A stretch of DNA of 64,000 nt, taken from the sequence record OQ708376.1; one strand, written 5' to 3'. Below the pieces are notes generated by a model. That model did not search any database. It was given only the letters and a program-made list of their open reading frames with translations, and had not been told where the DNA came from. This DNA comes from Escherichia phage vB_EcoM_CRJP21. A program made the translations under genes and the position numbers. Shown here one piece after another: positions 43,936 to 52,522 of the stretch; positions within the stretch are counted from its first letter, which is position 1, and each line of letters begins with the position of its first letter.

Positions 43936-45141
43936 TTATATACCACGACTGGGTATTTTATATAATTGAAATTTAGTGTAATAATCAGAAACTGTTGTAC
44001 CTGTCGCTTGTGGGATATAGCCACTCAAATACACATCCCCTTGATTATCCATATACACATTTGTACATTCACTTGGACAGAATAACTCGATGCTGCCAAC
44101 TTTAGGTGCATCAACTGGAACTACAAATGTAGTACTTGATGTGGTATTACCGCGACCGAGCCTACCATATGTGTTTATACCACACATATAAAGTGAATTG
44201 TTAGTTTTAACCGTAAGCCCACCATATGTTAATGAATTTGATTTCATTTCCATATTATCTGATATTGGTAGAGTGGAGATTGTAGATAATACTGTCCCTG
44301 ATGAAGCGGCTGAACCATTACCCAAGTTACCTTCCGATTGAATCCCACTTGCACGAACTGTATATGTATTATTCGTGTTGTGTTTAGATACAACCCATGA
44401 TGCACTCCCACCAAGTTCATAATGTATAACAGTATTGTTGGCTAATGCACCCATTTGTGTCCATACTTTAACGTTAGTTTCACCATTACTTATACCAAGT
44501 GAACCCCATGTGTTTTGACCAGTGACCCAAAGTGTTTTATCAATTTTCTGCACAATCACTGCACTTGAACCTGTTTTTACACTATCCACATTCGTATTAA
44601 TTGAAGTAAATGTTGATAATCTTGTGGTTGTGTTATTACCAAAATATCCCTGTGTATTGGCCCCCATTCCATATAGCGTACCATTTTGAAGTAAAACAAA
44701 AATACCCTCCCCTACAATTTGAATGTCCTTAATTTGCGACAATTGTGTTGCATTGAATACTGATGTAAAATATGAAGTACAATCAGTATAAGTACTGACA
44801 GTACTTAATCCTGTACCAATAGCTCTACCTACGCCACTGTAATAAAATTTATTATCTTCGGTTTGGATTAAATTAAAAGAACCTTGGGCTGTTCTAAAAC
44901 GTTTTACATTTTGGTATATTAAAGCCCACTCTTTTACTTTCGCATTAGGTACACCATTTCCGAATCCATAGTTTTGTGAACTAGTTCCACCTATACCCAT
45001 TAAGTCTCCATTTTTATATAATAGTAAGAGTGCTGTTGCTGGAATAACTGACGCACTATAACCATTGTAAATAAAGATTTCTTTCACTTCAGGAACTTTC
45101 ATTTTATTTGCGTATTTTATCATCCTTGGAAAAGGTAACAT
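43936..45141 (-). CDS. RCC1-like repeat (beta-propeller) protein, paralog 2
   Basis: MLPFPRMIKY leader; G/T/N/S-rich with repeated GxxGQLG-type motifs. Confidence 0.7.
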   Translation of the reverse strand: MLPFPRMIKYANKMKVPEVKEIFIYNGYSASVIPATALLLLYKNGDLMGIGGTSSQNYGFGNGVPNAKVKEWALIYQNVKRFRTAQGSFNLIQTEDNKFYYSGVGRAIGTGLSTVSTYTDCTSYFTSVFNATQLSQIKDIQIVGEGIFVLLQNGTLYGMGANTQGYFGNNTTTRLSTFTSINTNVDSVKTGSSAVIVQKIDKTLWVTGQNTWGSLGISNGETNVKVWTQMGALANNTVIHYELGGSASWVVSKHNTNNTYTVRASGIQSEGNLGNGSAASSGTVLSTISTLPISDNMEMKSNSLTYGGLTVKTNNSLYMCGINTYGRLGRGNTTSSTTFVVPVDAPKVGSIELFCPSECTNVYMDNQGDVYLSGYIPQATGTTVSDYYTKFQLYKIPSRGI

Positions 45142-45216
45142 AAATCCCTCCTTTATTCATTATACTATATTTAATCAAAAAGAAAAGCCAGCACTCTGTA
45201 CTGGCATTTAAAATAA

Positions 45217-46392
45217 TCAAATTGTAGGAAGTAGGAATTCTTTCATAACAGATGAACTGCTTGCAGATACATTATCTGGTGATTTCCCTGCGTAGTATAA
45301 TTTATTATTAATGAACATATACAATGTTGCATCATTTCCTGCAACTAGTGATTCACTTTTCTTAAATTGAACACCACTAGGTAAAATTGCTTCAACAAAT
45401 GAACCTGATTCTCTTGTAGTATTATTTGCCAATTGACCATTGTTATTATAACCAGTACTATAAATTTTACCTGAACTATAATATACGAGTCCACGAGTAC
45501 TAGTGTTTTCTATTCGAATGAATTCACTATCATCTGGAACTGTAGTTGATAGTACTGGGTTTAACTTATAAGCAGATGTTACATTATTATTACCCAATTG
45601 ACCATAACCTTGAAAGCCTAGAGTGTACATTGGACATGATTCTGGTGTACCTTTTGTTATAATACCAATATAATTCGAACTACAAAAAATATCTATTGCT
45701 TCTGTAATAGGTGTACCCTTATATTGAACCCAAGGGAATACATACGTTTGTTGCTTACTATTTCCCAAAGTACCGGAAGTTGTTGTTCCTGTACGCCACA
45801 TTGTATCATCAAGTTTAATTATCCAGTTAGCTGGCGTTATCGATGAACAGAATTTTTTAACATTATCCACTAAAAATGTAAATTTATTATAATATGATGC
45901 AGTGTTTATTCCAAACTTAGCACCAGTATTATCACCTAACAAATATAAACTATTATCTGTATCTAAAATCAAAGCATAATCATAACCCACGTATATCTCT
46001 TTAATTTTTGAAATACCAAATTGTGCGAAATAGCTTGTACATTCAGTGAATGTTGTCACTGTATTTGTTGTGTTATTACCTAGCCATTTATCTAAACCAC
46101 TATAAAAGAATCTATCATCATTTGTGCGTATTAGACAAAAAGAGTTCATTGTACTGCACCAAAAATCTTTAACATTGCTGTATATTTGTGTCCATTCAGT
46201 TACTTGATTAGTATGACCTAAACCAAAAATTCCACCATTCTGAAGACCAATAGCCCATATTGAACCATTTTTGTCAAGCATCATCGTGCATGTATATGAA
46301 TAACCACATGACGGGGTAACTAATTTAACAAAATTGGGAATATATGGTAAAACTTTATTTCCATAATCCAACATTCTTACAAAAGGTAACAT
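45217..46392 (-). CDS. RCC1-like repeat protein, paralog 3
   Basis: MLPFVRMLDY leader; GYGQLGNN and NGQLANN motifs. Confidence 0.7.
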   Translation of the reverse strand: MLPFVRMLDYGNKVLPYIPNFVKLVTPSCGYSYTCTMMLDKNGSIWAIGLQNGGIFGLGHTNQVTEWTQIYSNVKDFWCSTMNSFCLIRTNDDRFFYSGLDKWLGNNTTNTVTTFTECTSYFAQFGISKIKEIYVGYDYALILDTDNSLYLLGDNTGAKFGINTASYYNKFTFLVDNVKKFCSSITPANWIIKLDDTMWRTGTTTSGTLGNSKQQTYVFPWVQYKGTPITEAIDIFCSSNYIGIITKGTPESCPMYTLGFQGYGQLGNNNVTSAYKLNPVLSTTVPDDSEFIRIENTSTRGLVYYSSGKIYSTGYNNNGQLANNTTRESGSFVEAILPSGVQFKKSESLVAGNDATLYMFINNKLYYAGKSPDNVSASSSSVMKEFLLPTI

Positions 46393-51342: not shown

Positions 51343-51412
51343 ATTCCCTCCTTTATTTGTTATACTATATTTAATACAAATAAGAAAGCCAGTACAGAGT
51401 ACTGGCATTATG

Positions 51413-52522
51413 TTATTTTGGTAAATCAATTTTAGTAAAGACTGCAACATCCTCGATTGCACCTGGAATGGCGTAATACGATCCAGTACTATACACATCT
51501 CCATTTTTGGTTAATATCGATGTCAAACCATCACTAAAAAGAACATCCCTAATCTCACTAACTTCAACGGGTAATTGTAAATTGGTAGCACTATATATAG
51601 CACCAGTTTGAGAATTGTTTAATCCCAAACCACGGTTCGCCCCAACACCCTTCTGATATGTACTAGTAATTACCATTTGTGTAGCAGTATTTAAGGCAGG
51701 TGAATTCGTCATAAACAACGGAGAACTATTAGGCAAAGTACTTAAAGGAACTGCACGGAATGTAGTCGTACCTGAACTAAGAAAGTTTGGAGTTTGACCA
51801 CATACGAAATATGATGTACCATTATAGTAATTTAATGCATTACCACCAATGGCTGCATCGATTACACCAGAACTACGCAATCCCCAAGTGTTAATTTGTG
51901 TTTGGTTCCCCGTACCATGCTGCCCACTACTATTCCATCCAGAACTATATAGCTTATTATCTAATGTAAGATACATACTATCATTCGCATTGGTCATTAC
52001 TTTACGAACGTTCGTAGCACATTGAGTTAATGTGTAAATTGATGATGAACCAATACCCAAAGAACCACGATATCCATTATCTCCTGCACCATAGAGTACT
52101 GAATTAGTGCTAAGTACAAATATTAAACCATTTGTGCATACAATATTAGCAATTTCACTGACTGGTATAGCATTGGTAAACCAACTAGTCCTTTCAACTA
52201 ATACAGTACTGTAAGAAGTAGTTGTAGAAGATGAGAACCAGTACGTTTGACCTGATGTCCATATAGTATTATCATTTTTAATAATAACAAGTGTACGATC
52301 ACCCACGAAAAAATTAGAAACATCTGCACTTACTAATGTCCACGAAGACACCGTGTTGGTATTACCATTTCCAGATTCACCACCTTGATTTCTACCTATG
52401 TAATATAAATCATGTGAATCAGTCAATAAGAATTGACCTTGTGTAGAAGCACCAACTTTAATTATTTTTTTAGGACCAGGGACAATATTTCCATACCTAA
52501 TTATTCTTCCAAAAGGTAACAT
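51413..52522 (-). CDS. RCC1-like repeat protein, paralog 8
   Basis: MLPFGRIIRY leader; start trimmed. Confidence 0.7.
   Translation of the reverse strand: MLPFGRIIRYGNIVPGPKKIIKVGASTQGQFLLTDSHDLYYIGRNQGGESGNGNTNTVSSWTLVSADVSNFFVGDRTLVIIKNDNTIWTSGQTYWFSSSTTTSYSTVLVERTSWFTNAIPVSEIANIVCTNGLIFVLSTNSVLYGAGDNGYRGSLGIGSSSIYTLTQCATNVRKVMTNANDSMYLTLDNKLYSSGWNSSGQHGTGNQTQINTWGLRSSGVIDAAIGGNALNYYNGTSYFVCGQTPNFLSSGTTTFRAVPLSTLPNSSPLFMTNSPALNTATQMVITSTYQKGVGANRGLGLNNSQTGAIYSATNLQLPVEVSEIRDVLFSDGLTSILTKNGDVYSTGSYYAIPGAIEDVAVFTKIDLPK

What the first reader, a model, noticed from the sequence alone, without database searches (positions are those of the whole stretch)
45141..51413. Near-identical ~70-100 bp upstream modules (palindromic hairpin plus promoter/RBS) reiterated between the RCC1-like genes
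Each intergenic gap contains nearly the same sequence, read on the minus strand: a GCCAGTAC-nnn-GTACTGGC hairpin, a T-rich tract, TATAGTATAATGAATAAAGGAGG and then ATG TTA CCT TTT. That gives every paralog its own terminator, promoter and SD. These repeats are also ideal substrates for homologous recombination, gene conversion, or copy-number expansion and contraction within the array.
Basis: seen in the sequence. Interest (0 to 1): 0.6.

Follow-up and report, generated by a model that had tools for sequence, protein, structure and literature searches.

The report
Repeated cassette boundaries shuffle phage genes
Between the RCC1-like genes of this giant E. coli phage sits an almost identical ~120-base unit (terminator hairpin, promoter-like box, ribosome site, first 13 codons), and related phages have gained, lost and swapped whole genes by recombining within it; this resembles the known 'PeSL' elements of T4-type phages.

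Summary
Six near-identical modules, two variants and one reduced junction separate nine RCC1-like genes on the minus strand (42712-53733). Module identity is about 0.9; the flanking coding DNA is 0.3-0.45 and the proteins are 20-25% identical.

The window is an Asteriusvirus (PBECO4/121Q-like jumbo coliphage). It is 99.9% identical to PBECO4 across the array except for one clean 1,220-bp cassette. The crossover lies inside the module.

Across nine relatives the array is a mosaic of at least 35 cassette types, with 9-13 units per phage. Of 46 internal homology-block ends, 36 fall within -76..+47 of a start codon.

Each module contains:
- an 8-bp hairpin (-11 to -13 kcal/mol) with a U-rich tail, supported by wobble and compensatory changes;
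- an array-specific box, TTAAATATAGTATAAT, with no -35 element;
- the ribosome site AAGGAGG;
- a leader, MLPFxRMxxYGN.

The leader is conserved across genera. It also heads unrelated proteins that published mass spectrometry or record annotation places in virions.

Best reading: a PeSL-like expression-and-recombination cassette boundary, a new variant of a known kind. Promoter class, termination and leader function are inferred, not shown.

The parts
51298..51415 (-). Module G2|G3: hairpin 51406-51388, T-run, TTAAATATAGTATAAC 51374-51359, AAGGAGGG, ATG 51342, leader codons to about 51298
50087..50205 (-). Module G3|G4: hairpin 50196-50178, TTAAATATAGTATAAT 50164-50149, Shine-Dalgarno site, ATG 50131, leader. 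This module is chimeric relative to PBECO4 and is the scar of the cassette F deletion
48822..48942 (-). Module G4|G5: hairpin 48933-48914 (4-nt loop), TTAAATATATTATAAT 48899-48884, Shine-Dalgarno site, ATG 48866, leader
47571..47688 (-). Module G5|G6: hairpin 47679-47661, box 47647-47632, Shine-Dalgarno site, ATG 47615, leader
46348..46466 (-). Module G6|G7: hairpin 46457-46439, box 46425-46410, Shine-Dalgarno site, ATG 46392, leader
45097..45214 (-). Module G7|G8: hairpin 45205-45187 (U.G wobble variant GTGCTGGC), box 45174-45159, Shine-Dalgarno site, ATG 45141, leader
43820..43938 (-). Variant module G8|G9: hairpin 43929-43911 (U.G wobble), T7 run, CTAAATATAATAA 43899-43887, GGAGG, ATG 43864, leader MLPFGRII
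53689..53805 (-). First-gene module upstream of G1: no hairpin, GTAAATATGATATAAT 53765-53750, AAGGAGGG, ATG 53733, leader. It shares the gap with a divergent sigma-70-like promoter for the + strand gene at 53836
52478..52533 (-). Reduced junction G1|G2: TAG stop, GGAGGG, ATG 52522, leader only. No hairpin and no promoter box
52531..53733 (-). G1, RCC1-like gene (cassette type D), 400 aa
51413..52522 (-). G2, RCC1-like gene (type A), 369 aa
50203..51342 (-). G3, RCC1-like gene (type B), 379 aa
48941..50131 (-). G4, RCC1-like gene (type E), 396 aa. AlphaFold model is a beta-propeller with residues 1-15 at low confidence
47687..48866 (-). G5, RCC1-like gene (type H), with a frameshift shared by all four H copies
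46464..47615 (-). G6, RCC1-like gene (type C), 383 aa
45217..46392 (-). G7, RCC1-like gene (type L), 391 aa
43936..45141 (-). G8, RCC1-like gene (type M), 401 aa
42712..43864 (-). G9, RCC1-like gene (type G), with a conserved +1 frame break near 43650

Best explanation
Each module is a composite cassette boundary. In the direction of transcription it holds four parts: (i) an intrinsic-terminator-type hairpin with a U-rich tail that ends the upstream gene's transcript; (ii) an AT-rich promoter-like box, TTAAATATAGTATAAT, found only in this array; (iii) a strong ribosome site; and (iv) 13 codons for a shared N-terminal leader, MLPFxRMxxYGN. This makes each gene a self-contained expression unit. 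Because the same ~120 bases flank every gene, the phage's T4-like homologous recombination system can cross over within them. Whole genes are thereby deleted, inserted, replaced or moved between co-infecting relatives without breaking expression or the leader. Shown here: the anatomy, the excess conservation, and the placement of recombination breakpoints. Inferred: termination, promoter activity and timing, and that the leader directs the proteins into the virion.
For: - Excess conservation: module identity about 0.9 against 0.3-0.45 in flanking coding DNA. The proteins are 20-25% identical, and 7 of 17 invariant columns lie in the first 12 residues.
- Cassette maps of 9 phages show whole-unit gains, losses, replacements and moves. 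Type F sits between B and E in five phages, is absent in two, and is first in 121Q and UE-S1.
- The window matches PBECO4 at 99.93% and 99.91% in two blocks that overlap in one module, and lacks one 1,220-bp cassette. The scar carries the B|F-type spacer and E-type coding sequence, so the crossover lay between about -3 and +37. ELP-22 lacks the same cassette but has a crossover further upstream.
- 36 of 46 internal homology-block ends lie within -76..+47 of a start codon, a zone covering 9.4% of the array (binomial 1.5e-28; the events are not independent).
- Adjacent cassettes have incongruent histories. Against slurp01, E is 99.5% and C 90.1% identical; against SP27, E is 91.0% and C 97.8%.
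- Hairpins fold at -11.4 to -13.4 kcal/mol (z -3.7 to -7). Most single stem substitutions are G.U wobbles on the sense RNA, and in the two window copies folded on both strands they weaken only the antisense RNA. Compensatory changes occur in UE-S1 and in phage Munch. Loops vary freely.
- The module occurs only in Asteriusvirus records, 3-12 places each; in the five genomes compared, these counts match the array junctions. It is 100% identical over 66 nt in G17, whose coding DNA is about 84% identical.
- The same hairpin, T-run and TTAAATATA[T/G]TATAAT architecture occurs in the Salmonella phage Munch.
- Relatives encode RecA-like, gp46/47-like and EndoVII-like recombination proteins.
- Leader: conserved in Munch, GAP32 and Yersinia fHe-Yen9-04 RCC1 genes. 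It is also present on unrelated proteins annotated as virion structural in CBB and GAP32. Eight array proteins were found in phAPEC6 virions (PMC7247149). GAP32_001 and CBB_144 were found in virions (PMC5259590).
Against: - There are no transcript or termination data for any Asteriusvirus.
- The promoter-like box has no -35 and is not called by the sigma-70 scan. Its TATAAT is TATAAC in 9 of 60 unique modules. Its TTAAATA core differs from the NATAAATA found upstream of structural genes in the genus.
- Modules within a genome are no more alike than modules from different genomes (edit distance 6.26 against 6.45, p = 0.63). Their uniformity may therefore owe more to purifying selection than to recombination, and crossovers there may be a by-product.
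- U-tails are interrupted (UUUCUUAUUU).
- Some junctions lack the hairpin and box yet still mark cassette borders.
- Some breakpoints in lower-quality Salmonella phage records, and in cassette G, lie inside genes.
Confidence: 0.72

Rival explanations
1. The modules are uniform only because each part (terminator, promoter, ribosome site, leader) is under strong purifying selection. Recombination within them is an unavoidable side effect with no role in how the locus evolves.
For: No within-genome homogenisation was found. The same architecture and leader are kept in another genus whose proteins are about 34% identical. Free variation is confined to the loop and the spacer between the ribosome site and ATG.
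Against: Nearly all structural differences between relatives have their borders in the modules. Adjacent cassettes have different histories. Leader codons depart from the genes' own codon usage: CCT in 48 of 50 leaders against 27% in gene bodies, and GGG in 33 of 44 glycine codons (GGG or GGA) at that position against 10%. This points to nucleotide-level identity beyond protein constraint. The two readings are not exclusive.
Confidence: 0.2
2. The palindrome works as double-stranded DNA, as a binding site for a phage protein that recognises the genome-wide CAGTAC/AGTACT motif, rather than as an RNA terminator.
For: AGTACT occurs 232 times against about 22 expected, and CAGTACTG 54 times against 0.6, in the window. 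Both are also enriched in other Asteriusvirus DNA. CAGTACTG sits inside many early promoters. The hairpin arms are halves of this motif.
Against: Most single stem changes are G.U wobbles that preserve only the sense-strand RNA helix. In Munch the stem is GGCTAGTAC/GTACTAGCC, which keeps the pairing but loses CAGTAC. Loops vary in length from 3 to 8 nt, which would change half-site spacing. A T-run always follows on the sense strand.
Confidence: 0.1
3. The repeats are leftovers of recent tandem duplication and have simply not diverged yet.
For: The genes are paralogs arranged in tandem.
Against: The gene bodies have diverged to 20-25% protein identity while the modules remain about 90% identical. 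The modules are also shared with a non-homologous glycine-rich gene, cassette I.
Confidence: 0.02
4. The repeat is a small mobile element (MITE-like, or a homing target) that has inserted between the genes.
For: It is short, has a palindromic core and is present in many copies.
Against: It is confined to one array per genome. It is always in one orientation and in register with stop and start codons, and it includes coding sequence. No terminal repeats, target duplications or associated transposase were seen. Only 2 IMG/VR contigs carry it.
Confidence: 0.03

Closest known systems
PeSLs (promoter-early stem-loops) of T4-type phages (Arbiol et al. 2010, PMC2839356; Comeau et al. 2014, PMC4122927)
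   Same: Both are short composite intergenic cassettes with a terminator-type stem-loop next to a promoter motif. Both are present in many near-identical copies around non-essential variable genes, and both lie at the borders of insertions, deletions and replacements between close relatives. In both cases the phage has T4-like recombination functions.
   Different: The promoter here is not a sigma-70 consensus: it has no -35, and its box is array-specific. The stem is CCAGTAC/GTACTGG rather than polyG/polyC. The unit also includes the ribosome site and 13 conserved codons. Copies are confined to one array of mostly paralogous genes instead of being dispersed among ORFans. The host phage is an Asteriusvirus jumbo phage. 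Mini-circles were not tested. A separate motif in this window (GGGTTGACTTCGGTCAGCCC-T5-GC-TATAAT, 9 copies) fits the classical PeSL description better.
Internal-protein (IP) loci of T-even phages with a shared capsid targeting sequence (as discussed in PMC2839356; the details of the targeting sequence are from my own knowledge)
   Same: Both are hypervariable loci whose genes share upstream regulatory sequence and a short conserved N-terminal peptide. The products are found in virions. PeSL-like elements are thought to confine shuffling to the locus.
   Different: Here the proteins are about 40-kDa RCC1-like propellers, not small basic proteins. No consistent protease cleavage motif follows the leader. 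Neither capsid location nor leader cleavage is known.
Receptor-binding protein sets with a conserved N-terminal anchor and swappable distal domains (general phage knowledge, not tested here)
   Same: A conserved N-terminus is joined to diverse ligand-binding folds, with recombination at the conserved part. Virions of 121Q and CBB carry hair-like fibres (PMC7824862, PMC5259590).
   Different: The leader is only about 13 residues long and is predicted to be disordered. No link between these proteins and fibres has been shown.

Membership tests
PeSL (T4-type phages) | One short intergenic unit combining a promoter motif and an adjacent stem-loop | tested here: met
   A hairpin, T-run and TTAAATATAGTATAAT lie within about 65 nt. 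This is sequence-level evidence only.
PeSL (T4-type phages) | The promoter matches the sigma-70 early consensus (-35, -10, AT-rich upstream region) | tested here: not met
   No module is called by the -35/-10 scan. The -35 position reads TTTCTT. TATAAT is TATAAC in 9 of 60 unique modules.
PeSL (T4-type phages) | The stem-loop is an effective terminator | not testable with these tools
   Only predicted: -11.4 to -13.4 kcal/mol with a U-rich tail. Wobble and compensatory changes support an RNA helix.
PeSL (T4-type phages) | Many copies dispersed through hyperplastic regions next to unrelated ORFans | tested here: inconclusive
   There are 3-12 copies per genome, but all in one array of mostly paralogous genes. 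One non-homologous gene, cassette I, is also flanked.
PeSL (T4-type phages) | Copies mark the borders of indels and replacements between close relatives | tested here: met
PeSL (T4-type phages) | Recombination between copies yields mini-circles | not testable with these tools
   This requires inverse PCR or long reads from infected cells.
Intrinsic (factor-independent) terminator | A G+C-containing stem-loop immediately followed by a U-tract on the transcribed strand | tested here: met
   All 7 hairpins are called and are stable. The tails are interrupted, and activity was not measured.
T4-type late promoter | TATAAATA at about -10, recognised by a gp55-like sigma factor | tested here: inconclusive
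   Structural genes of phAPEC6 carry NATAAATA, and a gp55-like sigma factor is annotated. The modules have an invariant TTAAATATA, with one position off. The full box is absent from 48 kb of structural genes.
T-even IP/capsid-targeting-sequence-like locus | Divergent genes sharing a short conserved N-terminal peptide | tested here: met
T-even IP/capsid-targeting-sequence-like locus | The products are packaged in the virion | tested here: met
   From published proteomes of relatives, not of this phage: phAPEC6, 8 array proteins; GAP32_001 and CBB_144.
T-even IP/capsid-targeting-sequence-like locus | The peptide targets the protein to the prohead and is removed by the prohead protease | not testable with these tools
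   No consistent cleavage motif follows the leader. Virion location is unknown.
RCC1-like repeat proteins | RCC1 repeats above the Pfam threshold | tested here: met
   PF00415 scores 30.7-40.4 bits (cut-off 21.7) in three of the four RCC1-type genes scanned; the fourth (G4) matched only PF25390 and PF13540, both below their cut-offs. phrog_4219 matches G4 at 1.7e-102.

The most novel reading that the evidence does not exclude
The coding part of the module, MLPFxR(M/I/L)xxY(G/A)N, may be a general virion-incorporation or docking tag of Rak2-like jumbo phages. If so, the array would be a plug-in system: any gene recombined behind a module gains its own transcription unit, a strong ribosome site and a route into the particle. 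The phages could then display or package a changing set of ligand-binding domains, including RCC1 propellers, a glycine-rich protein and Laminin-G-like proteins.
Probability: 0.4. Interest if true: 0.75.

Novelty: new variant of a known kind. Interest (0 to 1): 0.55.

Why it matters
The finding extends PeSL-type modular shuffling from T4-type phages to a distant group of 350-kb jumbo phages, and to a form in which the recombining unit carries a protein leader as well as regulatory signals.

It provides near-isogenic evidence: the window and PBECO4 differ across this array essentially by one cassette.

It also makes two questions testable. The first is how jumbo phages direct accessory proteins into their virions. 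The second is what the many RCC1-like 'DNA condensation' genes do. Published proteomes place them in the virion, and their annotated name has no experimental basis.

Tried and rejected
- Within-genome gene conversion: module distances within and between genomes do not differ (6.26 against 6.45, p = 0.63), so concerted evolution inside a genome is not supported.
- Sigma-70 promoter reading: the scan does not call the modules, and the region as a whole has fewer sites than shuffles (46 against 63.5).
- N-terminal 'velcro' strand of the propeller as the reason for leader conservation: the AlphaFold model places residues 1-15 outside the strands at pLDDT below 50. The model is weak overall (mean 64.8, 7 sequences).
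- Word-indexed protein search: it returned only 6 orthologs of one cassette.
- Profile search of 1.84 billion representatives: it was swamped by giant multi-RCC1 proteins and said nothing about the leader.
- Rfam: no family matches, apart from one sub-threshold chance hit.
- IMG/VR: only 2 contigs carry the box, and one of them is 121Q.
- Literature: searches for the genome-wide motif found nothing relevant. No paper found describes these modules.
- Programmed frameshift in cassette G: considered, but no recognisable slippery site is present.
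Full report
**Observation.** On the minus strand, nine genes start with ATG TTA CCT TTT (ATG CTA CCC TTT in G9), each preceded by GGAGG. Their start codons are at 53733, 52522, 51342, 50131, 48866, 47615, 46392, 45141 and 43864.
- Six of the gaps hold almost the same sequence. The 23-mer TATAGTATAATGAATAAAGGAGG is found six times with 3 or fewer mismatches, against none in shuffles.
- A terminator-type scan calls a GCCAGTAC-loop-GTACTGGC hairpin with a T-rich tail at seven junctions.
- An alignment of the junctions gives a mean pairwise identity of 0.89-0.92 from -54 to -3 and 0.85 from -2 to +27. 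It drops to 0.3-0.45 in the coding DNA on both sides.
- The seven intact proteins are only 20-25% identical, yet 7 of their 17 invariant columns are in the first 12 residues.

**Anatomy.** Read in the direction of transcription, a full module contains:
- the stop codon of the upstream gene;
- an 8-bp hairpin with a 3-4-nt loop;
- UUUCUUAUUU or a similar tail;
- GTATTAAATATAGTATAATGAAT;
- AAGGAGG, then a 5-7-nt spacer and ATG;
- about 13 conserved codons (MLPFxRMxxYGNI).

There are three exceptions. G1, the first gene, has no hairpin and shares its gap with a divergent sigma-70-like promoter. The G1|G2 junction has only the ribosome site and leader. G9 has a variant box.

**Where it comes from.** The window is an Asteriusvirus, in the PBECO4/121Q group of about 350-kb coliphages. 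No record covers 80% or more of the array in one piece, which already signals structural variation. Pfam and PHROGs confirm that the genes tested are RCC1-like.

**Recombination.** I cut the arrays of the window and eight relatives into ATG-to-ATG units and clustered them at 90% identity or more.

| Phage | Cassette order |
|---|---|
| window | D A B E H C L M G |
| PBECO4 | D A B F E H C L M G |
| slurp01 | W N O D A B F E H C X J G |
| SHEFM2K | N O D A B F E H C K J G |
| SP27 | O D A B F E I C P K Q J b |
| ELP-22 | N D A B E I C a K J G |
| 121Q | F Y A B E I Z C P K Q G |
| UE-S1 | F R S A C I T U V |

SD-6 is a further variant. Whole units are therefore gained, lost, replaced (H against I) and moved (F).
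- The window and PBECO4 are 99.93% and 99.91% identical in two blocks that overlap in one module. They differ by exactly one 1,220-bp unit, F.
- At the scar, the window has the spacer of PBECO4's B|F module and the coding sequence of E. The crossover therefore lay in the roughly 40 identical bases around the start codon.
- ELP-22 lacks F too, but carries the F|E-type spacer, so this was an independent event with a crossover further upstream.
- Across nine relatives, 36 of 46 internal ends of homology blocks lie within -76..+47 of a start codon, a zone covering 9.4% of the array. The nominal binomial probability is 1.5e-28, but the events share ancestry and are not independent.
- Most exceptions are in Salmonella phage SD-6, whose record shows many fragmented ORFs. 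Two are a deletion inside cassette G.
- Adjacent cassettes have incongruent histories. The window's E is closest to slurp01 (99.5%) and far from SP27 (91.0%), whereas its C is closest to SP27 (97.8%) and far from slurp01 (90.1%).
- Relatives encode RecA-like, gp46/47-like and EndoVII-like proteins, so a T4-like recombination system is available.

**What keeps the modules alike.** Modules in one genome are no more similar to each other than to non-orthologous modules in other genomes (6.26 against 6.45 differences in about 65 nt, p = 0.63). Modules that share a flanking cassette are closer (3.65).
- Intragenomic gene conversion is therefore not supported. The modules travel with their cassettes within a genus-wide pool.
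- The module is 100% identical over 66 nt in G17, whose coding DNA is about 84% identical.
- A different genus (Salmonella phage Munch, RCC1 proteins about 34% identical) has the same hairpin, T-run and TTAAATATA[T/G]TATAAT at two junctions. That argues for purifying selection on function.
- Leader codons depart from the genes' own usage. Pro is CCT in 48 of 50 leaders against 27% in gene bodies. Gly is GGG in 33 of 44 glycine codons (GGG or GGA) at that position against 10%. Identity at the nucleotide level therefore exceeds what the peptide requires.

**Hairpin.**
- Sense-strand RNAs fold at -11.4 to -13.4 kcal/mol (z -3.7 to -7.0).
- Among 22 distinct arm pairs from 11 phages, most single stem changes are G.U wobbles on the sense RNA. 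In the two window copies folded on both strands, they weaken the antisense fold (-8 and -10 kcal/mol).
- There are two compensatory double changes (UE-S1, Munch).
- Loops vary widely, and a few copies are degenerate.

This favours an RNA element read in the sense direction, that is, a terminator or a 3'-end stabiliser. Activity has not been measured.

**Promoter.** The sigma-70 scan does not call the modules because they have no -35.
- Across 60 unique modules, TTAAATATA is invariant, while TATAAT is TATAAC in nine.
- First-gene versions in Asteriusvirus, Munch, Yersinia phage fHe-Yen9-04 and GAP32 share GGGTAAATA.
- Upstream of capsid, portal and baseplate genes of phAPEC6 I find T4-like NATAAATA, and a gp55-like sigma factor is annotated.
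- The pattern TAAATAT-NN-TATAAT occurs only inside RCC1 arrays in all fetched loci. It is absent from 48 kb of structural genes even when one mismatch is allowed.

I conclude that this is an array-specific promoter-like element, possibly a late-type variant or a target of a phage sigma factor. Its class is unresolved.

**Leader.**
- The same N-terminus occurs on RCC1-like proteins of Munch (MIPFxRILxYGN), GAP32 (MLPFSRIIQYGN) and fHe-Yen9-04 (MLPFP[I/V]I..). In the last, the genes form a tight operon without modules.
- In relatives, cassette I encodes a glycine-rich protein with no Pfam match, which is not RCC1-like but carries the module and leader.
- The homolog of cassette I in Pectobacterium phage CBB lies between nucleotide-reductase genes. 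It starts with MLPFSPLIVYGNK and is annotated as structural.
- Every further ORF of 60 aa or more starting with this motif in the fetched CBB and GAP32 DNA is annotated as a virion structural protein. These are CBB gp430, gp431 (Laminin_G_3), gp442 and gp443, and GAP32_002.
- Published proteomes found eight array proteins in phAPEC6 virions (PMC7247149 Table 1, mapped), and found GAP32_001 and CBB_144 in virions (PMC5259590).
- The AlphaFold model of G4 is weak (mean pLDDT 64.8), but it places residues 1-15 outside the propeller at low confidence.

The inference is that the leader is a shared virion-incorporation or docking signal. This is not shown.

**Comparison with what is known.** The closest described elements are PeSLs of T4-type phages. 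These are composite promoter/stem-loop cassettes that flank variable genes, mark indel borders and form mini-circles (PMC2839356, PMC4122927). The same paper notes analogous elements at the T-even internal-protein loci. The present modules work like PeSLs, but they fail the sigma-70 promoter criterion, have a different stem, extend into the coding sequence and are confined to one array. I therefore file them as a new variant of that kind, not as members. No paper I found describes them. GenBank records of UE-S1 and G17 carry automatic 'repeat_region' or 'terminator' features at these sites.

**Rivals.**
- Pure purifying selection with incidental recombination remains compatible with the data, and is partly complementary to the best explanation.
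- A DNA-level protein-binding role for the palindrome is suggested by the genome-wide AGTACT excess, but it is disfavoured by the sense-strand wobble pattern and by the Munch stem.
- Undiverged duplication and a mobile-element origin are rejected.

**Limits.** All functional statements rest on sequence and comparison. The virion evidence comes from relatives. Homology-block ends and cassette maps depend on the quality of deposited assemblies.

Noticed in passing
whole window; also L010, L009, L004: AGTACT occurs 232 times (about 22 expected from base composition) and the palindrome CAGTACTG 54 times (0.6 expected), in both coding and intergenic DNA. The same excess is seen in other Asteriusvirus regions. 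The motif sits between the -35 and -10 of many early promoters, and its halves form the module hairpin arms. No literature was found.
   Followed up: partly
window 24523, 27766, 27949, 29526, 30611, 35106, 35689, 36388, 38346 (+ strand): A second repeated regulatory cassette among small + strand genes: AAAGGGTTGACTTCGGTCAGCCC-TTTTT-GC-TATAAT. The hairpin stem contains the -35 TTGACT, and a T-run and a -10 follow. There are 9 copies against 0.02 expected. This fits the classical PeSL description closely.
   Followed up: partly
window 42712-43864 (-), frame break near 43650: Cassette G is split by a +1 frame change in every record that carries it (9 or more records, none intact). Substitutions against slurp01, 121Q, ELP-22 and SHEFM2K are 4-5 synonymous to 0 non-synonymous upstream in frame 0, and 25-31 synonymous to 5-7 non-synonymous downstream in frame +1. 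Both parts therefore appear to be under purifying selection. No recognisable slippery site is present. This could be recoding or a split gene.
   Followed up: partly
window 47687-48866 (-): Cassette H carries a 1-nt frame break shared by all four copies (window, PBECO4, slurp01, SHEFM2K). These copies differ by only 1-4 nt in 1,251, although neighbouring cassette C is only 84-90% identical between the window and slurp01/SHEFM2K. This looks like a recently spread, possibly defective cassette.
   Followed up: partly
window 53836-57886 (+): A second paralog array: about 20 tightly packed genes of about 60-70 aa, starting M[HNY]KE[FY]Y and ending ..LLIYRY, interrupted by a 223-aa gene. They share conserved 5' ends (repeat families D5-D10). 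Copy number differs among relatives.
   Followed up: no
window 933-3807 (+): A cluster of six tRNA genes. Several are preceded by sigma-70-like promoters of the form TTGACT-N11-CAGTACTGTATAAT.
   Followed up: no
L017 (CBB) 27028, 27690, 32850, 33531 (-); L016 3501 (+); L012 (GAP32) 1523, 2501 (+): Proteins of unrelated families (Laminin_G_3, a glycine-rich protein, about 215-aa proteins, RCC1) all start with MLPFxR..Y[GA]N, and all are annotated as virion structural proteins.
   Followed up: partly
L011 (Munch), L013 (fHe-Yen9-04): RCC1-like arrays exist in other jumbo-phage genera. There they are mostly translationally coupled operons with overlapping or 10-nt junctions. Full terminator-promoter modules at nearly every junction seem to be an Asteriusvirus elaboration.
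   Followed up: partly
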